This document shows positions 369 through 17,336 of a stretch of 17,793 bases of DNA, one piece after another. The notes beneath the pieces are model-generated. The model was not told the origin of the DNA and did no database searches. It was given only the letters and a program-made list of their open reading frames with translations. Numbering within the stretch: the stretch's first letter is position 1; each line of letters begins with the position of its first letter. This DNA is from Candidatus Bathyarchaeia archaeon. GTDB lineage: Archaea > Thermoproteota > Bathyarchaeia > Bathyarchaeales > Bathycorpusculaceae. The stretch lies in NCBI GenBank assembly GCA_049512075.1, contig JBEKXL010000035.1, positions 1 through 17,793 of the forward strand, given 5' to 3'. Position numbers and translations under genes: made by a program.

Positions 369-471
369 TAACCAAACGCCCTTATCAATTGCCTAAGCGC
401 ATGTCGCTCATAATGAGCAAAGTTGGTCAATATATTCTGTTTGTCCCTGTTCATGCTGTAATAGCGCGCTA

Positions 472-936
472 GGGCGTTGCTAAATTGGTATAAAATGGTA
501 TTTATTCTCCTTTTGCCTATTCGTGTCTAATATGGACTCGTTTGATAGACAAATCCTAGCCGTGCTGAAGGACGGCAAATCAGCGGATTTCCATCAGATC
601 CTAAAGGAAGTGAGGTTTTCGCACAACACCTTGAGGCTGCACCTGGCCAGCTTGGAACGTCAAGGCATCATCGTGAAAGCTGAAACGGCTAAGAATAGTC
701 CTGGAAGACCCAGTTTCACCTACACCTTGCCTCCGAATATCAGGCAACGAGTTGATCTGGTCGTCACGGAGCCCCAAACCACCATTGTCAGCCTGACCTT
801 CCAGAAGCTACGGCATCTGTGCAGATTCGAGAAAGGCGGATACTGCAAGAAAATCAGAAACAAGTGTGCGCCTCAAAACTGCCTCCAAATCCTGAAAAAC
901 GAATAAATACCATTTTTGACCAATTTAGCAACAGGC
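472..936. mobile_element. Non-autonomous TIR element (MITE/transporter-IS-like) carrying a wHTH gene
   Basis: 476-507 GTTGCTAAATTGGTATAAAATGGTATTTATTC matches 901-932 GAATAAATACCATTTTTGACCAATTTAGCAAC as a 30/32 inverted repeat. TA (or CTAG) lies on both sides. No transposase inside. Confidence 0.75.
523..906 (+). CDS. Winged helix-turn-helix protein (ArsR/DeoR-like) with C-terminal 4-Cys motif
   Basis: DRQILAVLK...SHNTLRLHLASLERQGII...GRPSFTY is a wHTH signature. C-terminus CRFEKGGYCKKIRNKCAPQNC is a putative Zn site. Confidence 0.85.
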   Translation: MSNMDSFDRQILAVLKDGKSADFHQILKEVRFSHNTLRLHLASLERQGIIVKAETAKNSPGRPSFTYTLPPNIRQRVDLVVTEPQTTIVSLTFQKLRHLCRFEKGGYCKKIRNKCAPQNCLQILKNE

Positions 937-1157
937 TAGCGCGCCTTAATCAATTACTGTTGGCGACATCACCCGCACAATCCCCTCTTTTCTTCCAGAG
1001 AAAAGCATTTTTGACGATTATGAACGTGTGTGAAGTAGGCGGAGTATGGAAAATAATGGCCGGGGTGAGGTTTTTAGGTCAAAGTGGCGATGTCTCCCAC
1101 AACTAATTCTCTTTTTTGAGATTATCAGGAAAACGTTCCGACTTCTAGCGCGCGCGC

Positions 1158-1262
1158 TACTGGGTTTTGTAGCCTTCAGTTGTCAGCTGCTGAACGATAT
1201 GCTGATAGTTGATTCAGGTCCTTGTTTTTTCCCTGAAAATGCACTACTTTCTCAGTTACCAA
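1158..1262 (-). pseudogene. 5' fragment of a hypothetical gene, frameshifted and truncated at a (CG)n tract
   Basis: GGGTG RBS then TTG: MVTEKVVHFQGKNKDLNQLS / shifted frame IVQQLTTEGYKTQ, followed by the tract at 1148-1157. Confidence 0.5.
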
Positions 1263-1409
1263 ATTGACACCCCAACACCTATTTGGCGCAGCGGCTAATT
1301 AATAGTTTTTCGGAATTAGACCCATTCTTACTACTCTCATAGTAGGAGCGCGCGCGCTTAACAGCTCCTTATTAGTCTTGATGAATGAACTATAGTTGAA
1401 GGGATTTAG

Positions 1410-2108
1410 TTGAGTCAGGGTTCAACTGGAAGCGTTCTTGTGATGGTGCCAACCTTAAACGAGGAGAGAGGGATAAGAAGGGTTCTAAAAGGTGTGCCAA
1501 AAGATAGCGATGTCTTGGTTGTGGACGGTGGCAGTACAGATGAAACCGTCGAAGTGGCAAGGCAATATCGAGTTAGAGTGATTAGACAGAAGTTCGGGAG
1601 AGGTAAGGGTTGCGGTGTAAGGACAGGGATGGAATTCTTTCTCAGCAGTAAATACGACGTTTTGTGCATGATTGATGGCGACGGAAGCAATGATCCTGAG
1701 GAGTTGCCAAAGATGAGTGAGGCCATGAAGGATGAAAAGGCCGAGGTTGTGCTTGGTTCAAGGGTAAGGGGGAAACGAGAAAAAGGCGCTATGACTCTAT
1801 TTACAATTTTTTCCAACGTCATTGTGTCGCTGTTTCTTGGGTTGCGATTCCTAAGAATTTTTACAGATGTACAAACAGGCTATTGGGCATTCAGCAGGAA
1901 AGCGGTTGAAACTCTTTACCCAAGGTTGAAGGCTAAGGGATTCGAGATAGAAATGGAGATTTTCGTGTCGACATTGGACGTTGGGCTGAAATGCATTGAG
2001 GTGCCCGTGGGATTCAAAAAACGATTGGGTAAAACGAAGTTTCGTCTTTTTTTACGTTTCAGAAATTTTGGCTACATGATTTACTACTGGTTACGCTCTT
2101 TCTTTTGA
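1410..2108 (+). CDS. Glycosyltransferase family 2 (DPM1/polyprenol-phosphate glycosyltransferase-like)
   Basis: Motifs VPTLNEE, VVDGGSTDET, GKG, IDGDGSNDP, GSR, TDVQTGY, GFEIEME. Confidence 0.92.
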   Translation: MSQGSTGSVLVMVPTLNEERGIRRVLKGVPKDSDVLVVDGGSTDETVEVARQYRVRVIRQKFGRGKGCGVRTGMEFFLSSKYDVLCMIDGDGSNDPEELPKMSEAMKDEKAEVVLGSRVRGKREKGAMTLFTIFSNVIVSLFLGLRFLRIFTDVQTGYWAFSRKAVETLYPRLKAKGFEIEMEIFVSTLDVGLKCIEVPVGFKKRLGKTKFRLFLRFRNFGYMIYYWLRSFF

Positions 2109-2602
2109 GTAGAAGAATGATGATAATCAATGCATTGTTAAAGCGCGCGCTAATCATTTTTCGAGTTAGCAGAAAACTTTTGACGTTCTTGTCTCGCTTG
2201 CTGTGTCCATATACGATTCGGGGAGGAGGTTTTTCCTGCTTGGAGGTAACTCTCGAGTGGAACAACCCTTAATGCGCGCGCGGTATTTGTCTATGTCCTG
2301 CTTTATGTCCATGCTGTTGGACTATTCAGCCTTGACCTCTGCTCAGCAGACTGGATATCACTGTATATGACTTGGGAACTTGGCACTTAGTGACTCATTA
2401 TATCCACATACTGAAGCGCGCGAGTGGCGTTCCATAACCAAGGACTGGCGAAGTTCGTTTGATTCCACACGAACGTTCTCACTTAAGCTTGCCACGTGAA
2501 ACTGAAAAAGTAGTCTCCTTAAAAAGATAGGGATTAAACCACACCCCGCGCGCTATAGATAGTTCTCTAGATGACTGAGAAAAGAGCCTAGTACAGCGCG
2601 CA

Positions 2603-2794
2603 CTAGAGAGATCGTTGAGGGCATTGAAAACCGAAGGAGCAATTGATGATTACCGTACAAGAACCGTAAGGACTGGCAAGTATCATTACAGAATAGACAT
2701 AAGACTCGTTTTAACTGCAGAGCAGGCAAAAATCATATTAAACGACTTGGTAACCAAAATACTTAGAATGTCCCGGTGGGATAATGGTCACTAA
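2603..2794 (+). pseudogene. 5'-truncated paralog of the 7998..8318 gene
   Basis: LERSLRALKTEGAIDDYRTRTVRTGKYHYRIDIRLVLTAEQAKIILNDLVTKILR versus LERSLRGLKTEGSIDDYRTRTVRTDKYHYRIDIRIVLTAKQAKIILNDLVAKILR. No start codon; similarity begins right after the GCGCGC at 2596-2601. Confidence 0.9.
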
Positions 2795-3296
2795 AGTTGC
2801 TGAAACAGATAGAGTGGATGCTGAAATAGACGAAATAGCACAAAGGATTTTGTTAGAGCTTGAAAGCGCAAGTTCCAAGGATTTGTCAGACGCTCATTAT
2901 GCAAAAATGATGCTGCGTTTATCAGACGTCCATTACGCAAAAAGGGTACTGCAACAGATAGCAAGCGTTACAAAGCAAAGCAGTGGAGTTGAAAGTAAGA
3001 TCGAGAAAAGAGCAGTGATCAAGGTTCTGTTGTTTTCTACGTGGGTGCAGAGACTTTATTTCATCATAAGATCCTTCATCATGGGGGAGATAGGTGGGAC
3101 CGTTACATTCCTTTTCATATGGTACATGGGCCAAGTAAGCGCTATTGTAAATTTTGAATTCGGCATAATTGTGTTTTTGTTCACATTGGTCATAACAAGA
3201 CTGTTTGATGCGCAAATAACCAAAGCTACAAAAAAAATCGTCGAACTTATGGCCAATCATAGAACTATTAGGGATTTCATCATGAATCACTTCTAG
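2784..3296 (+). CDS. Hypothetical membrane protein (two C-terminal TM helices)
   Basis: 170-aa ORF with two hydrophobic segments. A close paralog lies at 12935-13419. Confidence 0.85.
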   Translation: MVTKVAETDRVDAEIDEIAQRILLELESASSKDLSDAHYAKMMLRLSDVHYAKRVLQQIASVTKQSSGVESKIEKRAVIKVLLFSTWVQRLYFIIRSFIMGEIGGTVTFLFIWYMGQVSAIVNFEFGIIVFLFTLVITRLFDAQITKATKKIVELMANHRTIRDFIMNHF

Positions 3297-3315
3297 GTGA
3301 AGATTATGCGCGCGC

Positions 3316-3416
3316 CAGACCAAAGCAACAGTACTTCGCGATGGAAATCAAAAGGAAATACCAGTCGAAAAAATTGTGCCAGGCGATGTCATCATCCTCA
3401 ACGCTGGATACCTGAT
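3316..3416 (+). pseudogene. 101-bp internal fragment of a P-type ATPase (actuator domain)
   Basis: QTKATVLRDGNQKEIPVEKIVPGDVIILNAGYL matches the P-type ATPase pattern A.V.RDG....IP..ELVPGD.V.L..GD.IPAD. Bounded by tracts at 3308-3315 and 3417-3425. Confidence 0.88.
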
Positions 3417-3427
3417 GCGCGCGCGAA

Positions 3428-3561
3428 GCTGAGAACGTCGTGAACTCCGGCTGTTGGGTCACAGACTCATCTGTCTATGACACGGTCGTAGAACTGAGCG
3501 CGGGAAACCAAGACTGTCTATCTTTGAGGGGCGTGAAATAACAGAAAGGATTGCTATTTAG
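3428..3561 (+). pseudogene. 3' fragment of a metallophosphoesterase-like gene, frameshifted
   Basis: AENVVNSGCWVTDSSVYDTVVELSAG / PRLSIFEGREITERIAI*. NSGCW resembles the C-terminal N(T/S)GxW motif of LpxH-like phosphoesterases. Confidence 0.55.
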
Positions 3562-3793
3562 TCTTGTTCTGGTTGCTCTACTGGCCGCTCTCTAAGTTTT
3601 CTGGCACTCAGAATCACATCCTATCAGTTTACACAAGTTGGTTAGTTGGATAAAAATTCTCTCCAACAACAAACTCGGTTCAGCTATAACTTTTCCGCAA
3701 AGCGCGCGCTTTAAGAGGACTGATAGATGCTTCTTCTATTCGCATTTAAACATTAACGGTTCAATGAAGCACCAATCTCATAAGAGCGCGCGC

Positions 3794-3865
3794 CTTAGAA
3801 ACTAAGATTTCACTCAAATCATGAAACTCATCACAGACTTTCTTCAATTCTTCAATTCCACTCAT
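3794..3865 (-). pseudogene. Orphan gene start (RBS + 24 codons) truncated at a (CG)n tract
   Basis: GAAGGAGAAGGA..ATG then MSGIEELKKVCDEFHDLSEILVSK, followed directly by the tract at 3786-3793. The upstream limit is the tract at 3883-3893. Confidence 0.5.
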
Positions 3866-3893
3866 ATTAAATCCTTCTCCTTCGCGCGCGCGC

Positions 3894-4121
3894 CTATAAC
3901 CAGAGCCCTCTACACGTATGGACTTAAAGAGTTCCAGCAGTTCTATCAATCCCAAGGAACAATCAGCCAATTCATAGACCGAGTGCAGAAAGATATGAAG
4001 CAGACATGACTGGAAAGAAAAACAGAAGGTAGCTCAAAACACTCTGAGAGACTTCAGCGTGGCCCTGCAAGCAAAAGGGTTAGCGCCAACATCAATACGC
4101 TCATTCATATCATCAGTTCAA
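3894..4121 (+). pseudogene. N-terminal (SAM-like/core-binding) fragment of a tyrosine recombinase/integrase
   Basis: ITRALYTYGLKEFQQFYQSQGTISQFIDRVQKDMKQT / DWKEKQKVAQNTLRDFSVALQAKGLAPTSIRSFISSVQ has the T...Y...L..F and L...GLAP.SIR patterns of integrase N-domains. Frameshift near 4005, no catalytic domain, (CG)n tract on each side. Confidence 0.7.
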
Positions 4122-4520: not shown

Positions 4521-5633
4521 ATGAGTCAGGAGACCGCGGACCCGACTGAGGCACCGACGGGCGGCTTTCAGCTGCCCAGATCGGTCATAAAGTGGGTAGC
4601 CGCGGGCTTGGTTCTACCCTCCGCCGTTCTTATCATTATCTCGTTATATTCGGGCGTGAAGCTCTCGGATTTTGAAAGTATCGGTTACTTGACATTCGGC
4701 CTAGCAGCTGCTACATCTGTGGCCAAGCTCCTCGTCCAGATCGTGCGGTTCAGAGTGATAACGGTAGGCTTGGCTGGTGACCCGAAAATGGATTTGAGTG
4801 GCTTGGCGCTTACCAGAGTAAGCAGCGAGTTCCTCTCGATATCTACACCCACACCGAGTACGGGCGTCTTTATACGCTCTGCCTGGCTGTCGAAGAAGGG
4901 GGTGACCGGCGGCAAGGCGCTCTGGATTGGCTATTTTGAGGTACTCATCGAGGTATATGTTGGTGCTGGTCTCGGAATTGCCGCGGGCGCATACGCCTTC
5001 TTGAAGGGCGCGGTCGTCCTGGGGTCAACAATTGTTGTGATTGCGCTGGTCTTGATTGCTGGGTACACGATCATTTTCATAATTCCGGCTAGGAGAGCCA
5101 TCAAGGTTCCTCATTTTGTTTTCACGATTGCCAAGTATCTGGTAGGTGGCCCAAGAGCTACAGCCCTCTATCTTCACGCTGTCGTCGGCTCTCTGAATTT
5201 TTCAGTTTCCGCGCGCGCAATTCTAACGAGAGGTACAATACCCTTAGCGCTAAAGGCTGTTGTTCTGACCATCGCTGAGAATTTGTTGGACGGTGCGGGT
5301 CTCTGGTTTGTGCTAAACGCCGCAGGCTTGAAGATCGACCTGCTCTCCTGTACCATTGTAGTCCACGGTGTGGACACCATCGCTCAACTCCCGGTATCCA
5401 TAGGCGGCGCGGGACTCACGGAGCTCACCATGCAGGGCTACCTGATTGCAATCTATGGATTCTCCTCGTGGGCGTCCATTATAATATGGAGAGTCGCCGC
5501 TTATCAAGTCCTACTAGCGACAACTGGTATCGTGTTTCTGTTCTTCGTGCTCAAGAATACGAAGCATGCCGAGAAGCCACGTGAAGTGGAGCACCAGAAG
5601 GATGCCAAGGGATTCTTGCAAGATGGGGGATAG
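4521..5633 (+). CDS. Lysylphosphatidylglycerol synthase TM region / UPF0104 flippase-like membrane protein
   Basis: Multi-TM protein with TP..S.G..IR and LPVSIGGAGLTE...IIIWR motifs. Confidence 0.85.
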   Translation: MSQETADPTEAPTGGFQLPRSVIKWVAAGLVLPSAVLIIISLYSGVKLSDFESIGYLTFGLAAATSVAKLLVQIVRFRVITVGLAGDPKMDLSGLALTRVSSEFLSISTPTPSTGVFIRSAWLSKKGVTGGKALWIGYFEVLIEVYVGAGLGIAAGAYAFLKGAVVLGSTIVVIALVLIAGYTIIFIIPARRAIKVPHFVFTIAKYLVGGPRATALYLHAVVGSLNFSVSARAILTRGTIPLALKAVVLTIAENLLDGAGLWFVLNAAGLKIDLLSCTIVVHGVDTIAQLPVSIGGAGLTELTMQGYLIAIYGFSSWASIIIWRVAAYQVLLATTGIVFLFFVLKNTKHAEKPREVEHQKDAKGFLQDGG

Positions 5634-6082
5634 AAAGGGACATCCCAGAGCAGAGCATTTCAGAGCAAGAACAACGAGCAGGAATCACGCATTGAGGCCG
5701 TAGTACTTCTACCCCGCGGGAATCATCTAGAACGCGTGGTTTCCAGCGAAGCTGATCATTGCGAGGGCGTTCTCGAAGGTTATCATGAAGCCAATCATAC
5801 GGGCGCGCGCGCAAATGCCCACAGGGTACTTCAGAATGTAGCAAGGAGTCAAGCATAGTGTAGTCTACGCATCAACATTGCAGCATGCGCGCAATCCAAT
5901 ATCCTGACGCTGCCAAAATGCTGAAATAGTTGTGTTGTTTGTATTCTTTGGCATAATTTGCTATTGGTGCTGTACTAAACCTATAGAGGCTAGAGCTGAA
6001 TGAAAATCAATAGAACAAATTTGATTCGTGTTTCTGCGGCTGGTCTTTCTAAGACCATCGCCCGTTCATCCACCAAGAACAA

Positions 6083-6427
6083 GTGCAAGGCTGGACGTTG
6101 AATTCATTGTCAGCAACTTCAGGGACGGATGACTTTGCAACCACGTTTGCAAATGCGGTGCACGGTGGACTGGATAAGGTTCTAGGTCAGAGCGGGAGGG
6201 CGGCGGTCTTAACTCACATGAAGATGACTAGTAATCTTCCCGACCCGGCTGAATTTCATAAAAAGTTGCTCACACTTTTCGGCAAAGAAGGAACACTTTC
6301 GCTGGAAAGAGCGATAGTTAAGGATCTTGTGACGAGGCTCAAGTGGGCGCTAGACCTTTTGAGCATAGACGGATCCTTCGATTTCAACACGGCCATGCTC
6401 AAGATCAAGAAGGGTATGAAAGCATGA
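6083..6427 (+). CDS. Small helical protein resembling DUF3227/NitrOD5-type KaiC-partner domains
   Basis: AVHGGLDKVLGQSGRAAVL...PAEFHKKLLTLFGKEGTLSLERAIVKDL. ATGA overlap with the downstream ATPase. True start may lie slightly downstream. Confidence 0.65.
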   Translation: MQGWTLNSLSATSGTDDFATTFANAVHGGLDKVLGQSGRAAVLTHMKMTSNLPDPAEFHKKLLTLFGKEGTLSLERAIVKDLVTRLKWALDLLSIDGSFDFNTAMLKIKKGMKA

Positions 6428-7857
6428 CGACTAGAAAAAGCCCAGAATTGAAACCCCTTATTCAGGTGGATAGCCAAGGGGGTATTGCTGGTTCTGGAGC
6501 AGATGATCTGGCGGAGACACGGATAGCTGCTGTACTTGGTCTGAAACAATTCACGCAGCGACCCGTCAGAACCTTACTCGTCAAAGGTCTCGCAGGTACT
6601 GGCAAGACAACAATCGCCCTTGAAATTCTCAAGGCAGCGGGCAAAGGGAAAGGCGCGTACATATCCTCAAGAGTTCCAAAAGAACTCCTTGAAATGCAGA
6701 TACCAGCCATGCAGAAGACCTTACAGAATCAAGAGTTCTACGACATTAGGCTCGAGGACGCGACAACAGCACTGGATTTTGTCATCCAACTGACGGGGCC
6801 CAAGAAAGTCAGAACCATTGTGTTTGATAGTTGGGATGGCCTCGCGAAGGAATTGGACCACAAGGAAAGGTTACGAGCCGAGAAGACTATGATGGCCCTT
6901 GCAAATAATTCCGGCGCCCAACTTGTCTTTGTCAGCGAGGAACCCGGCGCCACGACCATAGACTATCTCGTCGATGGTATCCTCGAGTTGGTGAGGGTTG
7001 AAGAACAAGACCGTGCGGTACGAGAATTCATCATACACAAACTGCGTGGGACAAAGATACCCCAACACAAGTATCTCTTTACACTTCTAGAAGGAAAATT
7101 CACTTTCTTCGGACCCTACGCCATTCCCGATTACTCGAAGGTGGACAAGTTTGTTCGAAGGCCTGACATCGATGGATCCTATTCTTTCGGGAGTGGGGCT
7201 CTGGATAGACTGTTTGGAGGCATAATTCCTGGGAGCACCCTGGCTATCGAATATGATGAGAATGTTCCCTACCCTGCGCTCAGAACGATCGAGCTGCCTC
7301 CCATCATCAACTTTCTGTCGATGGGAAGGAGTGCGATCCTTCTCCCATTACCAGGCGCAAATGACGAGCGAACGAACTCGATTCTGACCAAAACGGTTGG
7401 CAAAAGTGTTGTAAGCGACCGACTCCGCATTCTCAACGTAGTCAGAACTAGCGACCTTGAGACCACGGAAATGCTGAAAAATGTCACGCCCAATGAAATC
7501 CATGAAATGGTAACTAGAGAGACGACAAGACTGCGGGAGAAATCGAAGGACAAGTCCGTGTTACTCGTAAAGTCCGTGAGTGCTCTAGAGAACTTGTTCG
7601 CTTCGGATTTGGATTCACTGCTCGAAGTGACCTCCCAAGAGATAATCACCCTCGCACAGTCGCATGATGCGCACATTCTCTTCTTGGCAAAGGATTCGCC
7701 TATCCGGTCGCGCATCCTCTCGATGAGTTCCAGTTACGCAAAATTGTTCGTTAGAGATGGCACCGTTCTGATGTTTGGCGTGAAGCCTCACACTGGGATT
7801 TACGTATTACAACACCTCGAGGATCCCACTTCTCCATCACTAACCCAAATGGTGTGA
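6424..7857 (+). CDS. GvpD-like / KaiC-RAD55 superfamily P-loop ATPase
   Basis: Walker A GLAGTGKTT, Walker B IVFDSWD, YISSRV, IDYLVDGILEL, KLRG motif, and a second degenerate RecA-like domain. Start set at the ATG at 6424, coupled to the upstream stop. Confidence 0.85.
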   Translation: MTTRKSPELKPLIQVDSQGGIAGSGADDLAETRIAAVLGLKQFTQRPVRTLLVKGLAGTGKTTIALEILKAAGKGKGAYISSRVPKELLEMQIPAMQKTLQNQEFYDIRLEDATTALDFVIQLTGPKKVRTIVFDSWDGLAKELDHKERLRAEKTMMALANNSGAQLVFVSEEPGATTIDYLVDGILELVRVEEQDRAVREFIIHKLRGTKIPQHKYLFTLLEGKFTFFGPYAIPDYSKVDKFVRRPDIDGSYSFGSGALDRLFGGIIPGSTLAIEYDENVPYPALRTIELPPIINFLSMGRSAILLPLPGANDERTNSILTKTVGKSVVSDRLRILNVVRTSDLETTEMLKNVTPNEIHEMVTRETTRLREKSKDKSVLLVKSVSALENLFASDLDSLLEVTSQEIITLAQSHDAHILFLAKDSPIRSRILSMSSSYAKLFVRDGTVLMFGVKPHTGIYVLQHLEDPTSPSLTQMV

Positions 7858-8564: not shown

Positions 8565-8893
8565 ATCCTTTCACCCCCTACTTCATCCTTTCACTGTGCG
8601 GCTGCTCAGTATTTTGAGCACTTCGTATTTAAATTTAGTGCGCGCGCGCTTTGGGGGTAAAGTTTTATCTTTTTCTCTCTCTCATTTTTGTTAACGACGA
8701 ACGACGACGATGCATAGCGTTTTGATACAGAACAATTCTCATTTAGCGCGCGCGCTGCACTTTCGACATAACTTTTCCTCTTTTTTGGTGATTGAATGAC
8801 ACAGTTCATCTTCTGGGCATTCTGTCAATAGCACCTAAGCCAAAAAGCTTAAAGCATGTGCTCTAAATAGCGTATTTTCAAAAAGGAGGAAAA

Positions 8894-9190: not shown

Positions 9191-9203
9191 TTGGGAATTG
9201 GCT

Positions 9204-9737: not shown

Positions 9738-10149
9738 AAGTAAAGTTAGTATCTCTCTTTTTTTAGTCTCTTAGTCTCTTAGTTCTTTAGCTGGTTCTCG
9801 ATCCTTAGTCTTTAGGTTTTAGTACTCTTATGCCAAATACACTTTTCAATGGAGATTTTAGTGCTAGGATTCTTTAGTACTGCTTAAAGTTAGTAATGCA
9901 TTACTAGATTTTAGGACCAGTGGACCAGATCCCAGACGGTGTAAACTTGACAGATATTCAGTACTGAAGGATCCAATAGGAACGAGAAGAGCCTACCACA
10001 GTTCAATCAATACGATATTCAGATCCAGCGCGCGCGAAGTTTTGTCCAACCACCCCCAACCAACCCCCTGCTTACGGTCACCAACCTAACTCTGTGACCA
10101 ACCATACTCCGCGCGCGTTCGAAGTCTATGTCTAATGTTGAGAAGGAAA

Positions 10150-10308: not shown

Positions 10309-10415
10309 TCTTTCACCTCCAATCTAAAGATGCGTCTCAACTAGCTCATTTGATTCTTCTGCCACGGTGGATCCTCAGAAAAAACACTGTTCCGAGGCGC
10401 GCGCGGCGGGTAACT

Positions 10416-10709: not shown

Positions 10710-11244
10710 AGTTCTCCCCGAAATTTTGGCTCTTTTTATCTACAAGCAACTTTGGAAACTCCTATATAAAATTTTTGCCGCAGCCCGCACTGACCAGTTC
10801 TACATTCAAAACGATTACCTTAAGAACCTCTATTTTAGGGATACAACGCCTCTGATGGAAACAATGGACGTGCGGGCTGTATTTCTCCCGAAGCCCTTAT
10901 TATTAATCGGACTTTTCGAGATTTCCGATAGCGCGCGCAGTACAGCAAACAGCGGAAAATGATGGGAAAGAGGAACAATTTTGTTGTAACAAAAGGCAAC
11001 AATCCAGGTTTTTCCCTACTTCCAAAAAGACAATGGACGCAACATCGATTTTTCATGCTTTGACCTTTTCGAGTCAAGCGCGCGCTCTGCAGATGTGCAC
11101 GCCTAATGCTTGGGCTTCTACGTCTCGTCCTTCAAACTTATAGATAGACGCAACATTGCACCCTAGCGCGCGCTCTATCGATAGTCGGTAGTCATTTACT
11201 AATCAGAAAAACAGTTGGGAATCTCCAAGTAGGCTTGGTGATTG

Positions 11245-11910
11245 CTATTTTTTCTGCGCATAGATGGACTCTGTCTTGCAACCTATTCTTCTTCCTTCAT
11301 GGATTAAATACGCGTATATGGTGTAGTACCCTGTTTCCTTTGGTGTAAACTCAGCGGAGTAGCGGGCTTCCTCTCCAACGGAAAGTTCCTTTATATTCAG
11401 TTTGGCCTGCTCTTCAAGCTTTCCTGAGGGGGTTTCCACCCAGAATTCCAGTTTGAGTTCTGTACTTTTTTCCAAGCCCTTAATGGTTGCCTCGGCTTCG
11501 ATGGCCTTTCCAATTGCCGCATACGGGTTTGAAAGCACTAGTAAACGCTCGATTTCTGCTTTTTCCTCGCTTACATGGATATGCGTCCAACCGGATTCCC
11601 ACCAGAAGGAGTCTCCACCAAATTTACGTCCAGTGATAGTGGCATACACATCAGCTGATCCGTATGCGTTAACCCGGAAAACCAATTCTTTTTCTTCATT
11701 TGGCTTAAGCTCTATGAGGTAGTGTCCTTGATACATATAGGGAAGAGAAAGATAGAAAGTGTCTAGAGAGTGCAATTGCACGTCAAGTTTCTTAAGAGTT
11801 TCCTTTCCTGTGTTTTTCAGTTTCAATGTTAACCATTGTATTCCTTTGTCTATCTCTGTAGGATCGAATTCATACTCAATAGGGTGCCTATATCTCAACA
11901 CTTTTTTCAC
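11245..11910 (-). CDS. Hypothetical protein with two beta-sandwich (Ig/CARDB-like) domains
   Basis: LTLKLKNTGKETL..L.P.EEKEL.F and FTPKETGYYTIYAYL are Ig-fold-like patterns. Confidence 0.75.
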   Translation of the reverse strand: MKKVLRYRHPIEYEFDPTEIDKGIQWLTLKLKNTGKETLKKLDVQLHSLDTFYLSLPYMYQGHYLIELKPNEEKELVFRVNAYGSADVYATITGRKFGGDSFWWESGWTHIHVSEEKAEIERLLVLSNPYAAIGKAIEAEATIKGLEKSTELKLEFWVETPSGKLEEQAKLNIKELSVGEEARYSAEFTPKETGYYTIYAYLIHEGRRIGCKTESIYAQKK

Positions 11911-12126
11911 CTCCTTTCATCTTGCGAATTTACTCCACTCGCTTTCGCGGGACCAACTATTCAAACGTCTCACTACTAGTTAAATTTACCCCAAACCAAA
12001 AAAAGGGCTTTAGGGTGGGCCATCACAGTTTGCGCACCATAACATGATTCCTCGCGCGTGTCGTGTTAGCATGGTTCTGCAAAGTTCCATATATGATGGA
12101 TGGCGATTTATCTCAGAGAGTTAGGT

Positions 12127-12296: not shown

Positions 12297-12665
12297 TGTT
12301 CACAGACAGGATCGCACCCTCGAATAACTCGTTTGGCAAGTTTGAAGTTCACGTCAAAATGGAAATGGCGCATGAGGATAATCTCTGCTAACAATCTGCT
12401 TGCGCATAATACAATGGGTGCGGGCGCCAAATACGCTCGTCAAACGGATCTATAGACCAACATAGTGAGGGCAGACTCCAAACCATTTTTGGCCGGTTTA
12501 GGAACAGCCAAGCGTGCTGAAGGTCGCAAAAACTATTAGCATACTCGCAAAGTCCTGAATAAGCAGTAATGCAAATGGGTCAACTCAAAATAGGGATACT
12601 TGGACAACGATTTCCATAAATAACTCTACAGCGAATGCTTGGTATAGTCTACCCGAGGTGAGAAC

Positions 12666-12824: not shown

Positions 12825-12934
12825 GAAGAGGGTGAGAAACATGAACGACTGTCGAGTTACCATATTCTTCGTGAAAATGGGGAGACAAAACGACTTGGTA
12901 ACCAAGGTGTTTAGAAGGCTTAGAAGGTGAGATA

Positions 12935-13419: not shown

Positions 13420-13656
13420 GCGAAGAGTGTGTAAGTTGATCGAGTTGTCCGTTTACACGCGCGCTGCAAAATTGTCACCCAAGACCATTGCTTTTCGATG
13501 TTTCTCGTGAAGCGTGCTAAGTTAAAGTGATAGAATGAATCAAAGGCGAAAAAGCAGAAAAAGAAGGGGAAGAGCTGATGTTAACGCGCGCCAGTTCTGC
13601 AAGAAAGACCTGTCTGAAAAACACGTGATATCGATCGAATAACACAAGCGCGCGTT

Positions 13657-13973
13657 TCCTCCCATCACGTCAAAGGAATCGAAGTCTGCAGAGATAAACT
13701 CATCCTCTACGGTTGCGGTGATATTCTAAACAATTACGAAGGCATAAGCACTCATGAACCTTTCAGGCAGGACTGATGTACTTTGCCACAGTGGAACCTA
13801 CAAAAGGAAAGGCGCTTTCACTTTAAATGATTGCGACTAAAATCAAACGCTTCAGACAAAATCAAGCATCGAGCCAAGACACTCTGTGGTTGAAGAGAAC
13901 ACTTGACAGAGAAAGCAATGAGTTAGGAACCCAAACAGAACTGGGTAACGACAACAGGTTGAGGCTTGTCTAG
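13657..13973 (+). pseudogene. 3' fragment of a CapA-family (poly-gamma-glutamate synthesis) gene, decayed
   Basis: SSHHVKGIEVCRDKLILYGCGDILNNYEGI...FRQD / MYFATVEP...*MIATKIKRFR...WLKRTLDRE...LRLV* matches the CapA C-terminus GHSSHH..GIEVY..KLILYGCGDF..DYEGI. Contains an internal stop and a frameshift. Confidence 0.85.
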
Positions 13974-14114
13974 CAAGTGCTTGCATCTGCATTTCTATCA
14001 TACACAGACTGATTTGGTTTGACTGATTTTTTATCATATCTTTAAGGTAGAATGCCAAATCATTCTAACATCTTCAAATGCACATGCGCGCGCTAGAAAA
14101 CGAAGCTCGCACTG

Positions 14115-15173
14115 TCATTTGGTTTCGCTTTCCGTCATCGACAGGTCCGAAGAAGTAACCTCGGGAGTGGGAGTGCTGCTGAGCAGTTTTCTCGCCCCGA
14201 TCCACTGAATGATGACGAAGCCAACTAGGATCTGAAACCAAAAAATCATGATTCTGATCAGCGCGGTTGCTGCTCCACCGATTGCGGTTGGAATGCCGGA
14301 TGACGCATAGAGGGTTGTCATAATGATCTCTACAATGCCAACAGAGAATGCCGCCGAGAGCCCTTGTATGTACATGGTTATTGAAGCCACTAGTATGACT
14401 AGACCGAACGCTATGTCCCTGAAGCCCAGGGCATAGAAGACCAAGAAATATACAGACATCTGGAATAGCCATCCGAGAGTTGAATAGATGAGCGGCTTGA
14501 TTATGTGTCTTGGATGTCTTCTCAAAGTCTCGAAACCTTGATGAAAAACTGCCAGGTTTTTCTCAGTTCTCTTCTGCAAATCATCAGTTTTGAAACGTTT
14601 CCCGACAAAGATTCTCGCGAAATTTGCCAACAACTTTGACAGTCTCTTTGATGCTTTTGTCTTTATAGCCACGTAGAGCAGAACTACTGCTTGAATGATA
14701 GATAAAGCCAATGTGATCACTAATATGTCGATGATGACAAAATTGGTCTGAGAATTGAGGATGATTGAGACAGACCCAAACGTCAAAACGCCCAAAATCG
14801 CTACAGTTGTGATGATGCGGAGGCTTACGACTGATGCAACGGTCTTTCCGAAGTCCTCCTTGACTTCTTCATAAACCAAGTACAGCCTGGCAATCTCTCC
14901 GCAGATGGTCTCGCAGGGGATTACCAAATCGACGAAGTTTCCAACCCAGTTGTAAAGGAATGCTTTGCGTGGACTTATGTTGATTGAGAGAGTTTTGAGG
15001 AGCTCGTACCATGCCATAGAAGTGAAGAACATACTCAACAACATAGAAACGGCTGTCAGGGAGAAAAAGAGAATAAACTCAGATTGATTGATTTTCTGCA
15101 TCAAGTCGAGTATCTTGTTAAAACCCGCAAAGAAGTAAAGGTATAGAATGAAAACTGACAGGCCTACAATCAT
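14115..15173 (-). CDS. Lysylphosphatidylglycerol synthase TM region / UPF0104 (AglD2-like) flippase-domain protein
   Basis: W..LL, GNFVDLVIP..TICGEIAR, VGIVEIIM, LIRIMIFW. An out-of-frame ATG at 15208 may be the original start, implying a 1-nt loss. Confidence 0.88.
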   Translation of the reverse strand: MIVGLSVFILYLYFFAGFNKILDLMQKINQSEFILFFSLTAVSMLLSMFFTSMAWYELLKTLSINISPRKAFLYNWVGNFVDLVIPCETICGEIARLYLVYEEVKEDFGKTVASVVSLRIITTVAILGVLTFGSVSIILNSQTNFVIIDILVITLALSIIQAVVLLYVAIKTKASKRLSKLLANFARIFVGKRFKTDDLQKRTEKNLAVFHQGFETLRRHPRHIIKPLIYSTLGWLFQMSVYFLVFYALGFRDIAFGLVILVASITMYIQGLSAAFSVGIVEIIMTTLYASSGIPTAIGGAATALIRIMIFWFQILVGFVIIQWIGARKLLSSTPTPEVTSSDLSMTESETK

Positions 15174-15584
15174 GACAGAAAAGACTTGCGGACTGCAAGA
15201 TAATTCATGACAGGCATTAGTTGTTCAACTCTTGCTACTCGCTTCTCCCAAGCGCTACGCGCGGGCTCTTAAACGCGCTTGGTTCATAGGGCACAAAATC
15301 TGAGCTTGGGATAAAAATTTTGCCGTCTAAATAGCATGCAATCTTGCATATCTTGAACAACATCTGTGGATTCGCTGATCTTCCGCGCGCGCTATGATAA
15401 CTGACGACTTGGATGCAAAACACGGTTTTGCAGCATATTTTTGTTAGCACGGTTCAATCATAACGCGCGATAGGGAATTGTCTGCGCAAAGATGTCGCTG
15501 CAGTCTCCAAGTCACATAAACTATTTATCGTCCAAGCTGCTACCAGTATTCCAGCTGAATGCTCATCTAAGATGGTTGATGGTA

Positions 15585-15983
15585 ATGGCTACGCCTGATG
15601 ACATAAAGAACATACTTGGCCCGAACGAAAAGGTTGAGCTGTATATTAAGGAGAAAATCTACCATCCTCAGCTGAACATCGATTCCTTGATTATTACGAA
15701 CGAACGGATACTTCTGCGACACCCCCACGCGCTCGGATTGAAGAAGGATTTCACCGATTACAGCTACTCGGACATCGCGGGTGTAACGTTGGACAAGGGA
15801 ATAATGCGATCAACAATCAAACTTACACTCAAACGCGATGGAGAACCACTAGAGCTGGGCAAGTTACCAACCTCCCTTGCAGAAAAGGGGTATGGCATCA
15901 TCAGAGAGAACGTGGGCAGATTCCAAGCACCTTTTTCAACCGGATATGCCAACGCTCCCGACGCTCCTAAAGCTCCTAAATAA
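15585..15983 (+). CDS. Bacterial-type PH domain protein
   Basis: LGPNEKVELY...DSLIITNERILL...KDFTDYSYSDI..V.LDKGIMRSTI. Start chosen at MATPDD. Confidence 0.82.
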   Translation: MATPDDIKNILGPNEKVELYIKEKIYHPQLNIDSLIITNERILLRHPHALGLKKDFTDYSYSDIAGVTLDKGIMRSTIKLTLKRDGEPLELGKLPTSLAEKGYGIIRENVGRFQAPFSTGYANAPDAPKAPK

Positions 15984-16234
15984 TCGCTTCAGCGGCCACG
16001 GCAAGAGCCCCTCCACTTGGGCTTTACCGAAGTGTATGGCAACTATTCGCCGGCACACGCGCACTTTACATGCAGCATGATCCGAACTGCGTGTTTCCCC
16101 ACGTCGGCGCGCGCGCAAAATAATATTAACGAGTTGCAGCGTATAAATTGCTTAGATTCGAATGGCTAAGGTGAGCAAAATCTTGGACTTTCTCAAATTG
16201 AGGTCCTTGACGAATCGTGAGTAGGTAAATTCAC

Positions 16235-17167
16235 ATGAATCTTCCTACGCATATAATGTTTGGTGCGCTAATCGGAGCTCTTTTCTTTGGGAGGTGGGAC
16301 ATCATTTTGCTTGTTGCCATCGGGTCAGTCCTCCCTGATATGGATAGGGAGTATGGCTTTTTCAGCAAAGATTACTTCCGCGACCATCAGCTCCATCGGG
16401 CGCTATACCACAACTTCGTTTTCATTGGGATCGTTTTTCTGATTAATCCTTACCTTGCACTGGGTGCTTTCTGTCATACTCTTCTTGATGGTATCAACAC
16501 AGCAAAAGATCGCGGGGTGGAGTGGCTTTATCCTTTTTCAAGGCTAGTGAGGAAAGCTAGGTATGATCACGAAGGTAAAAAAATTGCGTTCGATATCAAA
16601 ACTAAGGTATATATGTATCAAAACGACCCAGTCGAGCTCACTAGAAAAACCGCGGAGGATATGAAAGATTTTACTCTCAGGCCCTGGCGAAGGATATACG
16701 GTCCCTTCTATTCTGGCGGTATCCTGGACATAGGAATTTTTGTTGGTTCAACTGTACTCATCCTGTTTTTGGCTCTCCTGTCTGTGTTTGGGGTTAGGAC
16801 TTTCATCGATTTTTACCAACCCCAATTTAGCTTCAACTTTATTGGTCCTTTGTCAATCGGTGTTTTGGGCACTTCTCTAGTTTTGGGCGTAGGTGAAATA
16901 AAGAGGCACAGAGAGGCGAAAAGAGCTTCTCGGGCACCGCCGATGCTGTATAAGCTATCATTCTTTCTCTCGTTATCCTTAATCGCGTTTGGGGTTGGGC
17001 TTGGAGCCTACCTCAACCCAAGTTCATATATCACATCCGCAAGCGATCTTCCCTACGTGGCGGCAGGAATCTTAGTGGTGTTTTTAACTGCCTTCATTGT
17101 GCTTAGAATCTATTCTTCAAGGTCAATTGCGAGAATGAGAAATGGCCATGACCCATATGCAGTCTAA
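16235..17167 (+). CDS. Membrane-bound metal-dependent hydrolase (YdjM-like)
   Basis: Motifs TH, GSVLPDMD, HRALYHN, HTLLD, GVEWLYPF. Confidence 0.88.
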   Translation: MNLPTHIMFGALIGALFFGRWDIILLVAIGSVLPDMDREYGFFSKDYFRDHQLHRALYHNFVFIGIVFLINPYLALGAFCHTLLDGINTAKDRGVEWLYPFSRLVRKARYDHEGKKIAFDIKTKVYMYQNDPVELTRKTAEDMKDFTLRPWRRIYGPFYSGGILDIGIFVGSTVLILFLALLSVFGVRTFIDFYQPQFSFNFIGPLSIGVLGTSLVLGVGEIKRHREAKRASRAPPMLYKLSFFLSLSLIAFGVGLGAYLNPSSYITSASDLPYVAAGILVVFLTAFIVLRIYSSRSIARMRNGHDPYAV

Positions 17168-17336
17168 GGCATCAGTGCTTAGAGCGCTACGCACGATTCT
17201 AACCGTCAGTGGATGTGCTCTTATAGGCAACCGTTTCTAATGTTGCGAAAAGGCTTATAAAAGTGCAAGTTTCGGCTATCATTTAGGAGAAGCGATTGCA
17301 AAGCGCGCGCGCTTGATTGTAGCTTTATATTCAATC

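What the first reader, a model, noticed from the sequence alone, without database searches (positions are those of the whole stretch)
464..17312. (CG)n tracts mark the joints of a mosaic array of whole genes and gene scraps: candidate DNA capture/end-joining system
Seen: about 37 alternating CG tracts (24 are 8 nt or longer; a rough base-composition expectation for 8-mers is well below 1 per window). Thirty-five lie outside intact genes although intact genes cover over half the window. They delimit modules of about 40 bp to 2.7 kb in either orientation. At least six modules are recognisable gene fragments cut within 0-2 nt of a tract. Known: cyanobacterial HIP1 is a fixed octamer common inside genes, and integron attC sites and CRISPR repeats are longer, so none of these fits. 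Inference: a self-complementary (CG)n tail would let any two tailed DNA ends anneal, acting as a universal adaptor. The variable length (6-11 nt) and phase suit enzymatic tailing during end-joining, or a recombinase with a minimal CG core. No intact candidate enzyme is in the window.
Basis: partly seen in the sequence, partly recalled or inferred. Interest (0 to 1): 0.93.

Follow-up and report, generated by a model that had tools for sequence, protein, structure and literature searches.

The report
GC-palindrome scars at rejoined archaeal DNA
In this uncultured peat archaeon (Bathyarchaeia), short GCGCGCGC runs sit where DNA was deleted, swapped or rejoined and are missing from the unbroken versions, so they look like scars of an undescribed way of gluing broken DNA.

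Summary
Observation confirmed and extended. The window is a whole 17.8-kb contig of a Bathyarchaeia MAG. It holds 37 alternating CG runs of 6 nt or more, 24 of them 8 nt or more (fewer than 1 expected), and 35 lie outside intact genes.

The trait is genome-wide. GCGCGCGC is the commonest octamer of the 2.7-Mb genome. There are 581 runs of 8 nt or more: 76% non-coding, capped at 10 nt, phase G..C, flanks A..T. The trait is confined to this genus and one sister genus. Contigs from four other studies bridge the joints.

Comparison with relatives shows that seven deletion junctions carry (GC)4-5 where the undeleted allele has no tract. In a sister species, 30 of 98 tracts lie within 12 nt of a homology-block end (1.3% expected). 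None of 51 small indels is a bare tract insertion. The tracts are therefore scars written where DNA was rejoined. The 'ATPase scrap' is a deletion remnant, not captured DNA.

The writer is unidentified. A Ku-LigD operon exists but tracks the trait poorly, and RT, PolX, C5-methylase and PrimPol do not track it. SWIM-DDE (IS240-like) paralogues track it best. A transposon by-product is the main rival.

This scan reported the same phenomenon earlier in other Bathyarchaeia genomes. I found no paper on it.

The parts
302..307 (.). GCGCGC, 6 nt, inside the truncated phosphoesterase ORF 3..368(-)
   Evidence: Background-level hexamer: about half of the genome's 6-mers are coding.
464..944 (+). Repeated MITE-like element encoding a 127-aa winged-helix protein (523-906). 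Its inverted repeats begin and end with GCGCGC (464-469 and 939-944).
   Evidence: 18 full copies in G000 plus the G002 sample; 12 of 18 have 6+6 nt GC ends, commonly TA-flanked. Pfam HTH hits are below cut-off. The G002 match to 4-469 ends at the tract.
1148..1157 (.). (GC)5 tract
   Evidence: In run X2 a contig joins 1158 to 8650, both just past a tract, and there are loose ends at 1141 and 1159.
1348..1357 (.). (GC)5 tract, left border of the glycosyltransferase cassette
   Evidence: Matches in G002 (95%) and L027 (95%) start at 1349. Loose end at 1350 in X3.
1410..2108 (+). Family-2 glycosyltransferase gene, a cassette bounded by tracts
   Evidence: Pfam PF00535, E 2.6e-23.
2143..2150 (.). 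(GC)4 tract, right border of the glycosyltransferase cassette
   Evidence: The L027 match ends at 2148.
2274..2282 (.). (GC)4G tract
2416..2422 (.). 7-nt tract, left border of gene scrap 2424-2551
2424..2551 (-). Scrap of a 258-aa ORF whose full copy is at C17:8492-9268. The full copy has no tract at these positions.
   Evidence: 88% nt identity; blastx; listed.
2547..2553 (.). 7-nt tract, right border of that scrap
2596..2601 (.). 6-nt tract, left border of module 2603-3308
   Evidence: Four alignment ends fall at 2603.
2603..3308 (+). Module A. 2603-2799 is an inverted partial copy of 7986-8186, followed by a 170-aa ORF (2784-3296). A paralogue lies at 12943-13426. The module is found in many species in varying contexts.
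3308..3315 (.). (GC)4 scar at a 2369-bp deletion junction
   Evidence: 17 alignment ends fall at 3308. In G001 (L026) module A, bPH, YdjM and the ATPase segment are contiguous, with no tract at either edge.
3316..3416 (+). Remnant of a P-type-ATPase-like gene (aa 87-124 of 813)
   Evidence: 98% nt identity to C29:10318-10419, which lies inside an intact ORF without tracts.
3417..3425 (.). (GC)4G tract, right border of the ATPase remnant
3702..3709 (.). (GC)4 tract next to a 25-27-nt motif (3675-3701) that recurs at 100% identity in relatives
   Evidence: loose end at 3677.
3786..3793 (.). (GC)4 tract
3883..3893 (.). 11-nt tract, one of only 6 runs over 10 nt in the genome
4122..4129 (.). (GC)4 tract
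4521..5633 (+). LPG_synthase_TM-family membrane protein gene, containing the 9-nt tract 5210-5218
   Evidence: Pfam PF03706, E 2.9e-11.
5803..5812 (.). (GC)5 tract
5887..5892 (.). 6-nt tract
6343..7857 (+). KaiC/GvpD-like P-loop ATPase gene, tract-free
   Evidence: Pfam PF07088, E 9e-15, and PF06745. 4184-7613 is 96% identical in L027.
8640..8649 (.). (GC)5 tract. A variant joint lies here in run X2.
   Evidence: The neighbouring motif 8650-8681 recurs in relatives.
8746..8755 (.). (GC)5 tract
10028..10036 (.). (GC)4G tract
10110..10117 (.). 8-nt tract, left border of module 10117-10890
   Evidence: Five alignment ends. Matches in G002 (93%), G021 (95%) and G004 (87%). Loose end at 10110.
10397..10405 (.). 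(GC)4G tract, one of the few conserved with G002
   Evidence: loose end at 10395.
10931..10938 (.). (GC)4 tract, shared with the copy at C11:28091-28098
   Evidence: The G004 match ends at 10930.
10927..11070 (+). Fragment (aa 1-31) of an 89-aa ORF whose full copy is on C11
11078..11085 (.). (GC)4 tract 7 nt past the end of that fragment. The C11 copy has no tract here.
11166..11173 (.). (GC)4 tract, border of the CARDB-gene module
   Evidence: The G004 match 11171-12001 (94%) starts here.
11245..11910 (-). 221-aa CARDB-like gene, intact here. In G002 an internal 520 bp (11282-11803) is replaced by GCGCGCGC.
   Evidence: weak Pfam hits.
12053..12058 (.). 6-nt tract, left border of module 12051-13471
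   Evidence: Five alignment ends; G001 at 90%.
12302..12434 (.). 131-bp stretch present here and in G001. In G002 it is replaced by GCGCGCGCG.
13458..13464 (.). 7-nt tract. The orthologous position reads CGTGTGT in G001 and CTTGCGC in L022 and L035, with no length change.
13585..13591 (.). 7-nt tract inside a 2-kb insertion relative to relatives (13472-15492)
13648..13654 (.). 7-nt tract
14086..14093 (.). (GC)4 tract 22 nt past the stop of 14115-15173(-)
14115..15173 (-). Second LPG_synthase_TM-family gene
   Evidence: Pfam PF03706, E 2.3e-35.
15258..15263 (.). 6-nt tract. The G004 match 15267-17179 starts here.
15384..15392 (.). 9-nt tract
15464..15469 (.). 6-nt tract at the right edge of the 2-kb insertion
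15492..15983 (+). Bacterial-PH-domain gene
   Evidence: Pfam PF14470, E 2.2e-11.
16107..16116 (.). (GC)5 tract abutting a TATA-like box upstream of the YdjM-like gene. DNA to its left differs between species. G001 has an 81-bp deletion ending exactly at it.
16235..17167 (+). YdjM-family membrane hydrolase gene, 80-96% identical in protein in 26 of the 27 Bathyarchaeia species loci (53% in the 27th, L046)
   Evidence: Pfam PF04307.
17303..17312 (.). (GC)5 tract, border of the GCS2-gene module, which is inverted relative to YdjM in G004
   Evidence: loose end at 17313.

Best explanation
The A-(GC)4-T and A-(GC)5-T tracts are repair scars. In this genus, when chromosomal DNA breaks and is rejoined, usually after some sequence is lost, a short constant self-complementary GC run is written into the junction. 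The run is 8 or 10 nt and never exceeds 10 nt in total. Because the added sequence pairs with itself, any two processed ends can anneal in either orientation. That would explain deletions, inversions, cassette swaps and gene remnants that all share the same joint.

The window is the most scarred stretch of the genome. It is a flexible island of surface, membrane and small genes whose modules are shuffled between species.

Shown: tracts are new at junctions, they concentrate at homology breakpoints, they are lineage-specific, and their length and phase are discrete.

Inferred: that breaks and end joining are the route, and that the tails anneal.

Unknown: the enzyme, and where the constant sequence comes from (a protein's own specificity, or an RNA or DNA template). 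Once written, a tract seems to be used again, as shown by one-sided deletions ending at a tract and by insertion of mobile elements into tracts.
For: 1. De novo tracts at deletion junctions where the long allele has no tract at either edge.
- Window 11282-11803 (520 bp inside an intact gene) reads GCGCGCGC in G002.
- Window 12302-12434 (131 bp) reads GCGCGCGCG in G002.
- L022 8953-9073 (119 bp) reads GCGCGCGC in G021.
- The window 3308 junction equals a 2369-bp loss relative to G001.
- C3:154940 (146 bp), C6:14419 (406 bp) and C1:370995 (41 bp) come.
- In the G000/G002 sample, 7 of 21 indels of 20 bp or more have a tract in the short allele. Of those 7, 4 are clean de novo cases and 1 sits next to a proto-tract.

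2. None of 51 small indels (4-19 nt) is a bare tract insertion.

3. Of 98 G002 tracts of 8 nt or more, 30 lie within 12 nt of the end of an aligned block (1.3% of the sequence is such a zone). A further 57 lie in DNA with no G000 match, and only 11 lie inside blocks.

4. Breakpoint enrichment holds at two scales. In the window, 12 of 75 breakpoint clusters lie within 2 nt of a tract against 2.5% expected. Genome-wide, 99 of 896 intragenomic repeat ends abut a tract against 0.5% expected.

5. The tract has a discrete form. Run counts are 8 nt: 284, 9 nt: 186, 10 nt: 105, 11 nt or more: 6. GCGCGCGC outnumbers CGCGCGCG 250 to 34, and (GC)5 outnumbers (CG)5 90 to 15. The A..T flank pair occurs in 115 of 250 (GC)4 and 50 of 90 (GC)5.

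6. 1125 of 1161 tract flanks are unique, so the tract is not the end of a repeated element.

7. The pattern count is 115, 29, 87, 69 and 98 in the five genomes of the genus and 63 in one sister genus, against 0-11 in 35 other relatives.

8. Independent contigs bridge the joints, and variant strains diverge exactly at tracts.

9. A complete PolDom-Ku-Ligase/PE operon is present in this genome.
Against: - No writer was found.
- Ku and PolDom were found in only 3 of the 6 tract-rich genomes (G000, G002, G004), and also in 3 tract-poor ones (G010, G020, G040).
- RT was found in 0 of 41 genomes. PolX and PrimPol do not track the trait.
- 14 of 21 larger indels have no tract in the short allele's junction, and 10 of them show no tract in either allele, so most deletions are sealed without a scar.
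- Only 20 of 75 window breakpoint clusters lie within 20 nt of a tract.
- Some tracts differ from relatives by substitutions only, with colinear flanks. Others are conserved as parts of cassettes.
- Polarity (deletion rather than insertion) is firmly inferred for only two events, the CARDB gene and a 213-aa ORF.
- Gene calls were a crude ORF heuristic.
- Mobile elements with GCGCGC ends exist in the genome.
Confidence: 0.55

Rival explanations
1. The tracts are a by-product of mobile elements. DDE transposons whose ends or targets are (GC)n leave tracts as target-site duplications, end remnants or excision footprints. Element-mediated adjacent deletions followed by loss of the element would leave a lone tract at a deletion junction.
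For: - A MITE family has 18 full copies of the form TA|GCGCGC...GCGCGC|TA.
- A 161-bp MITE in G002 sits where G000 has (GC)5.
- A 2.57-kb element on C32 carries an IS240-type DDE gene, has 26-bp inverted repeats, and is flanked on both sides by GCGCGCGC. Eight bp is the duplication length I recall for the IS6 family.
- PF13610 (SWIM + DDE paralogues) was found in 6 of 6 tract-rich genomes, 3 of 5 intermediate ones and 6 of 30 poor ones.
- The enriched TA..TA context of tracts matches the MITE flanks.
Against: - 1125 of 1161 tract flanks are unique.
- None of 51 small indels is a bare tract, with or without a duplication. Excision or insertion-and-loss without deletion should produce such indels.
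- The clean deletion junctions have no TA or 8-bp duplication.
- The three best DDE copies are only 65-72% alike and share no ends.
- Two other copies of the C32 element's inverted repeat are not next to tracts, and that repeat was not found in G002, G003, G004, G021 or G012.
- The gene-presence correlation rests on related genomes, 5 of the 6 from one genus.
Confidence: 0.2
2. The tracts are pre-existing recombination sites, like a HIP1 or Chi site or an integron-like site. Because all copies are identical and palindromic, site-specific or microhomology-mediated exchange between any two of them shuffles, inverts or deletes the DNA between them. Nothing is written de novo.
For: - Whole cassettes are bounded by tracts on both sides and occur in other contexts and orientations in relatives, for example 1349-2148, 10117-10890, 16107-17200 and 17303-17793.
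- For 52 of 73 tract-flanked intragenomic repeats, the partner copy is also flanked at both ends.
- A one-sided 81-bp deletion ends at an existing tract.
- A variant joint connects two tract positions, 1158 and 8650.
Against: - Seven junctions carry a tract although the undeleted allele has none at either edge.
- The source genes of the scraps have no tracts.
- No conserved arms flank the tract.
- No integrase was found among the 20 window ORFs scanned.
Confidence: 0.12
3. The tract is a highly iterated palindrome made in place by biased mismatch repair linked to DNA methylation (Elhai's model for HIP1). Its link with breakpoints would be secondary, because both favour non-coding flexible DNA.
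For: - At 13458-13464 the tract aligns without gaps to CGTGTGT or CTTGCGC in relatives.
- The (GC)5 upstream of YdjM aligns to imperfect CG-rich strings in tract-poor species.
- GCGCGCGC is the commonest octamer in the genome.
Against: - No C5-methyltransferase (PF00145) was found in G000-G004 or G021; the one G002 hit is below cut-off.
- 76% of tracts are non-coding and they are clustered, unlike HIP1 as I recall it.
- Substitution cannot explain 8-10 nt that replace 41-2369 bp.
- Exact abutment to block ends is 24-fold above expectation.
Confidence: 0.05
4. The tracts are an assembly or library artefact, that is, chimeric joins.
For: The window is a short contig of a MAG, and tract-rich stretches often lie at contig ends.
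Against: - Contigs from four runs of four studies bridge the joints with 0 differences.
- The same trait appears in five other species' assemblies, including contigs of 0.5-2 Mb.
Confidence: 0.01

Closest known systems
Filler or N-nucleotide addition at end-joining junctions (eukaryotic TdT, Pol mu and Pol lambda; bacterial and archaeal Ku-LigD NHEJ, studied in Methanocella paludicola)
   Same: Extra nucleotides appear at rejoined breaks, often together with deletions. This genome has a complete PolDom-Ku-Ligase/PE operon. Archaeal NHEJ polymerases fill partly annealed ends (PMC4797286; I saw only the start of the abstract in the listing).
   Different: Known fillers are short and variable in sequence. 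Here the filler is one constant palindrome of 8 or 10 nt. Ku and PolDom were found in only 3 of 6 tract-rich genomes and also in 3 tract-poor ones.
Telomerase-type templated addition at DNA ends (de novo telomere addition at breaks; bacterial DRT10, bioRxiv 10.1101/2025.10.16.682844, abstract read)
   Same: A constant sequence is written onto DNA ends. A fixed template would explain the constant sequence, the phase and the length cap.
   Different: No reverse transcriptase was found in any of 41 genomes, and I found no template RNA. The additions are internal joints of 8-10 nt, not tandem arrays at chromosome ends.
HIP1 (GCGATCGC) of cyanobacteria (PMC4390886, abstract and passages read)
   Same: A GC-rich octamer palindrome, lineage-specific, that is the most over-represented word of the genome.
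   Different: HIP1 is tied to cognate methyltransferases, and as I recall is common inside genes. Here 76% of tracts are non-coding, they are clustered, no C5-methylase was found, and they arise at junctions. GCGCGC-type HIPs are not mentioned in that paper (0 occurrences).
Mosaic intergenic repeat arrays: Neisseria NIMEs with dRS3 repeats, E. coli BIMEs/REP (recalled, not checked in a paper here)
   Same: Short palindromic repeats delimit small modules in intergenic mosaics and are linked to rearrangement.
   Different: Those repeats are 20-40 nt with conserved structure, and the modules are themselves repeat families. Here the delimiter is 8-10 nt and 97% of flanks are unique.
Integron cassette arrays with attC sites
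   Same: Promoterless or small gene cassettes in variable order, bounded by a recurring site.
   Different: attC sites are far longer imperfect inverted repeats, need an IntI integrase, and cassettes share one orientation (recalled). None of these holds here.
Target-site duplications and ends of DDE transposons (IS6/IS240 family, TA-targeting MITEs)
   Same: One IS240-type element is flanked by GCGCGCGC on both sides, and a MITE family ends in GCGCGC. The DDE family co-occurs with the trait.
   Different: Most tracts stand alone with unique flanks, and they replace deleted DNA without any duplication.

Membership tests
HIP1-like highly iterated palindromes | A GC-rich octamer palindrome hyper-abundant across the genome | tested here: met
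   GCGCGCGC occurs 646 times and is the commonest 8-mer. There are 581 runs of 8 nt or more.
HIP1-like highly iterated palindromes | Spread through genes and core genome, quasi-evenly | tested here: not met
   24% of tracts lie in crude ORFs that cover 82% of the genome. Counts per 10 kb are over-dispersed, with variance 4.7 against mean 2.1.
HIP1-like highly iterated palindromes | A cognate DNA methyltransferase is present | tested here: inconclusive
   PF00145 was not found in the six tract-rich genomes. N4/N6 methylase classes were not surveyed.
Integron (attC cassette array) | attC sites, long imperfect inverted repeats with conserved boxes | tested here: not met
   The delimiter is 8-10 nt with no conserved flanks.
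Integron (attC cassette array) | An adjacent IntI-type tyrosine recombinase | tested here: not met
   None among the 20 window ORFs scanned against Pfam. The rest of the genome was not surveyed.
REP/BIME or NIME-type extragenic repeats | A 20-40-nt structured palindromic unit repeated with its flanks | tested here: not met
   The unit is 8-10 nt, and 1125 of 1161 flanks are singletons.
Transposon ends or excision footprints | The tract is contiguous with a conserved terminal inverted repeat | tested here: not met
   This is true only for small families, the largest being 8, 6 and 5 flanks. The MITE ends are 6-nt runs.
Transposon ends or excision footprints | Bare footprints or duplications at otherwise intact sites | tested here: not met
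   0 of 51 small indels in about 255 kb of G000/G002 alignment. The sample is small.
Ku-LigD NHEJ | Ku, primase-polymerase, ligase and phosphoesterase are encoded | tested here: met
   C16:5124-8191. PF21686 E 4e-83, PF02735 E 1e-40, PF01068 + PF04679 + PF13298.
Ku-LigD NHEJ | If it is the writer, its presence should track the trait across genomes | tested here: not met
   Found in G000, G002 and G004 and in tract-poor G010, G020 and G040. Not found in G001 (77% complete), G003 (93%) or G021 (98%).
Telomerase-like or RNA-templated end addition | A polymerase with a dedicated RNA carrying the template | tested here: inconclusive
   RT was found in 0 of 41 genomes. The AEP genes found (PriS, a mini-primase, a PrimPol-helicase, PolDom) do not track the trait. 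The 375 nt after the mini-primase hold no GC run. No RNA model search could be run.
CRISPR array | Regular repeats of 25-40 nt with spacers of uniform size | tested here: not met
   The delimiter is 6-11 nt and spacing ranges from 42 bp to 2.7 kb.

The most novel reading that the evidence does not exclude
Bathyarchaeia of this lineage may have a dedicated break-joining pathway in which an unidentified enzyme writes a fixed self-complementary GC adaptor onto any DNA end. The enzyme could be guided by its own RNA or a protein template, or it could be a domesticated SWIM-DDE transposase. Because the adaptor pairs with itself, arbitrary ends anneal and are sealed. This would be a sequence-tagged end-joining system that drives deletion, inversion and cassette exchange and leaves a readable record of every event.
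Probability: 0.3. Interest if true: 0.95.

Novelty: categorically new. Interest (0 to 1): 0.85.

Why it matters
If the scars are written by a dedicated activity, this is a new kind of DNA double-strand-break repair. Archaea are thought mostly to lack end joining, so that alone would be notable. It would also explain how the flexible genome of an abundant but uncultured soil and sediment lineage is cut down and reshuffled.

Every event would leave a tag, so rearrangement history could be read directly from genomes. An enzyme that gives any DNA end the same sticky adaptor would also be of practical interest.

If instead the tracts come from transposons, they would still be an unusually clean marker of how much mobile elements sculpt archaeal genomes.

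Tried and rejected
- **tRNA and Rfam scans of the window.** No tRNA was found, and there was only one sub-threshold Rfam hit.
- **16S search in the genome.** No match. The organism was named from the record titles of related loci.
- **Tracts as promoter or terminator signals.** Tracts occur in divergent, tandem and convergent spacers at 0.74, 0.92 and 1.14 per kb, at all distances from starts and stops. I rejected this as the main explanation.
- **Tracts as ends of one repeat family.** Rejected.
- **High-copy transposases.** Clustering the crude proteome found none. The largest families are TBP (8 copies) and GNAT (5 copies).
- **The RNA-templated 'primase-like' writer named in earlier notes of this scan.** I could not reproduce it here.
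  - PF09250 and PF01896 searches found PriS, a 251-aa mini-primase and a PrimPol-helicase.
  - jackhmmer from these added only rubrerythrin-like zinc-ribbon proteins.
  - The mini-primase is G000-specific among the tract-rich genomes, and its relatives occur in tract-poor genomes.
  - Its 375-nt downstream region has no GC run.
  - The six runs longer than 10 nt, which I took as candidate templates, lie next to unrelated genes. The 429-aa ORF beside the 13-nt run has no Pfam hit and no homologue in the 40 relatives.
  - Four tracts conserved between G000 and G002 showed nothing RNA-gene-like.
- **Cas1.** Found in 16 of 41 genomes. There are 6 hits in G000 but none in G002, so there is no clear link.
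- **Literature.** These term sets returned no papers: GCGCGCGC + intergenic + archaea, and Bathyarchaeia + palindrome. Bathyarchaeota + 'end joining' returned 4 papers, none on this by title or abstract start.
- **Limits.** Supplementary files were not consulted because they are closed. Structure prediction, fold search and complex prediction were not used. As a result, a genome-wide polarised indel catalogue and a search for alternative scar motifs in tract-poor relatives were not done.

Full report
**The observation.** The window is an entire contig (C35) of a 2.73-Mb, 86-contig genome that is 99.8% complete. It contains 37 maximal alternating C/G runs of 6 nt or more, and 24 of them are 8 nt or more. 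From the window's composition I estimate about 0.2 octamer runs by chance (hand arithmetic). Only two runs lie inside supported ORFs.

Related loci carry record titles of Candidatus Bathyarchaeia or Bathyarchaeota MAGs. Window genes include GvpD/KaiC-like, CARDB-like, glycosyltransferase, LPG-synthase-TM, bacterial PH and YdjM families.

**It is a genome-wide, lineage-specific trait.** The genome has 1445 runs of 6 nt or more and 581 of 8 nt or more, and GCGCGCGC is its commonest octamer at 646 occurrences. Run counts fall as expected from 4 to 7 nt (8834, 2105, 669, 195). They then rise to 284, 186 and 105 at 8, 9 and 10 nt, and collapse to 3, 2 and 1 at 11, 12 and 13 nt. Alternating AT and GT/AC runs show no such hump.

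The phase is fixed. There are 250 GCGCGCGC against 34 CGCGCGCG, and 90 (GC)5 against 15 (CG)5. The flank pair A..T is preferred.

With a crude ORF call covering 82% of the genome, only 24% of runs of 8 nt or more are inside ORFs. The runs occur in all kinds of intergenic spacer and cluster in low-coding, lower-GC stretches and at contig ends. The first 10 kb of this window is the densest stretch of the genome.

The 10-mer AGCGCGCGCT occurs 115, 29, 87, 69 and 98 times in the five genomes of the genus and 63 times in one sister genus. In 35 other relatives it occurs 0 to 11 times. The reversed control pattern gives 0 to 7.

**It is not an artefact.** Contigs from four runs of four studies cover the window and bridge most joints without a difference, for example 417-2669, 3379-8099, 9811-11454 and 13329-15901. 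Variant strains in those samples diverge exactly at tracts, with loose ends at 1159, 1350, 10110, 10395 and 17313 and a joint from 1158 to 8650. One of these runs may be the source of the window.

**Tracts and breakpoints.** Window modules recur at 85-97% nucleotide identity in other species, even other genera, in different order and orientation. Of 75 clusters of alignment ends in the window, 12 lie within 2 nt of a tract against 2.5% expected, although 55 lie more than 20 nt away. Within the genome, 99 of 896 repeat ends abut a tract against 0.5% expected.

I compared 380 kb of sister species G002 (about 94% identity) with G000. Of 98 G002 tracts, 30 lie within 12 nt of an aligned-block end, a zone that makes up 1.3% of the sequence. 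Another 57 lie in DNA with no G000 match, and 11 lie inside blocks, of which 4 to 6 are conserved. Tracts are therefore young and sit at the seams of the flexible genome.

**What happens at the seams.** Several deletion junctions carry a tract that the undeleted allele lacks at both edges.
- A 520-bp piece inside the CARDB-like gene is intact in the window and in G004, but in G002 it is replaced by GCGCGCGC.
- The 131 bp at 12302-12434 is replaced by GCGCGCGCG in G002.
- A 119-bp stretch next to the YdjM gene is replaced by GCGCGCGC in G021.
- In the wider G000/G002 comparison, 146 bp, 406 bp and 41 bp are replaced by (GC)4, (GC)4 and (GC)5.

Of 21 simple indels of 20 bp or more, 7 have a tract at the short allele's junction. 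Four of those are clean de novo cases. One lies beside an imperfect tract. Two have a tract at one edge of the long allele. The other 14 have none at the short allele's junction. None of 51 small indels is a bare tract insertion, so the tract comes with sequence loss.

In G001 the same 101 nt lie 2369 bp beyond the homologue of module 2603-3308, after the bPH and YdjM genes. The window junction at 3308-3315 is therefore a deletion sealed by GCGCGCGC in a duplicated block, not a captured fragment.

One deletion of 81 bp ends exactly at an existing tract. At 13458-13464 the tract differs from relatives by substitutions only. Tracts therefore also persist, mutate and are used again.

**Mobile elements.** The 481-bp element at 464-944 belongs to a family with 18 full copies of the form TA|GCGCGC...GCGCGC|TA, so its two hexamers are element ends. 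A 161-bp relative in G002 sits where G000 has (GC)5. A 2.57-kb element on C32 carries an IS240-type DDE gene, has 26-bp inverted repeats and is flanked by GCGCGCGC on both sides. Two other copies of that inverted repeat have no tract beside them, and it is absent from five relatives searched.

Against a transposon origin for most tracts, 1125 of 1161 flanks are unique, no bare footprints were seen, and the clean junctions show no duplication.

**Candidate enzymes.** The genome encodes a complete PolDom-Ku-Ligase/phosphoesterase-DUF72 operon on C16. Ku and PolDom were found in G000, G002 and G004 and in tract-poor G010, G020 and G040. They were not found in G001, G003 or G021.
- Reverse transcriptase was found in 0 of 41 genomes.
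- The PolX palm domain, PrimPol, C5-methylase and Cas1 do not track the trait.
- PF13610 tracks it best. These are roughly 385-aa SWIM plus DDE proteins present as diverged paralogues. They occur in 6 of 6 rich, 3 of 5 intermediate and 6 of 30 poor genomes. By hand arithmetic the chance of 6 of 6 is about 0.001, but five of the six are one genus, so this is only a lead.

**Earlier notes of this scan.** The same phenomenon was reported before on other Bathyarchaeia genomes, with two readings: scars, and insertion-sequence ends. Later notes claim a template RNA at the end of a primase-like gene. I could not reproduce that here, so it stays a hypothesis.

**Literature.** Three full-text searches found no paper on this. 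Elhai's HIP paper does not mention GCGCGC-type palindromes.

**Verdict.** The tracts are best read as scars of a lineage-specific break-and-rejoin process that inserts a constant self-complementary 8- or 10-nt GC run (confidence 0.55). The main rival is a by-product of DDE mobile elements (0.2). A purely recombinational hotspot (0.12) and in-place HIP-like evolution (0.05) are less likely. The 'capture' part and the idea of a local system do not.

Noticed in passing
G000 contig C16:5124-8919 (L110): A complete archaeal NHEJ operon: stand-alone LigD-type primase-polymerase, Ku, a ligase fused to a C-terminal 3'-phosphoesterase, then DUF72. It occurs in only 6 of the 41 related genomes searched.
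   Followed up: partly
G000, e.g. C3:194207-194800, C21:1776-2336: Eight paralogous TATA-binding protein genes (60% identity or more over 70% of their length), an unusually large TBP family.
   Followed up: no
window 15984-16234, compared with L033, L035, L041, L042, L044: In several species, mostly tract-poor (L035 is the tract-rich G021), the bPH and YdjM genes are about 25-30 nt apart. In the window and its close relatives a conserved insert of about 230 nt separates them, carrying a TATA-like box and the (GC)5 tract.
   Followed up: partly
window modules versus L020-L046: Window modules such as the YdjM gene are 85-96% identical in nucleotides across species and genera whose surrounding DNA differs in GC content (38-48%). 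This suggests recent horizontal exchange of these cassettes.
   Followed up: no
window 3675-3701, 8650-8681, 9443-9476: Short motifs of 25-34 nt recur at 91-100% identity at many places in all five related genomes searched. Two of them abut tracts. Their nature is unknown.
   Followed up: no
G000 C32:2207-4791 (L114 407-2991): A 2.57-kb element with 26-bp inverted repeats and an IS240-type DDE gene, flanked on both sides by GCGCGCGC. This looks like an insertion into a tract with an 8-bp duplication.
   Followed up: partly
G000 C1:280589-284377 (L080): An XhoI-type restriction enzyme and an Eco57I-like methylase lie next to the longest GC run of the genome (13 nt at 282777-282789). Beside them is a 429-aa ORF with no Pfam hit and no homologue in 40 relatives.
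   Followed up: partly
G000 C1:333582-336533 (L063 3582-6533): About 2.95 kb present in G000 but absent at this site in G001, G002, G004 and G021. It lies next to an 84-nt stretch that is 95-98% conserved across genera. This is probably an insertion beside a small RNA gene.
   Followed up: no
G000 C2:171414-174665: A 251-aa mini-primase follows a 657-aa ORF and is followed by 375 nt of non-coding DNA with a strong predicted fold (-94.9 kcal/mol). Among the tract-rich genomes it is specific to G000.
   Followed up: partly
G000, six places: Six Cas1 matches, including fragments, one of which (C7:37403-37561) lies at a MITE terminus.
   Followed up: no
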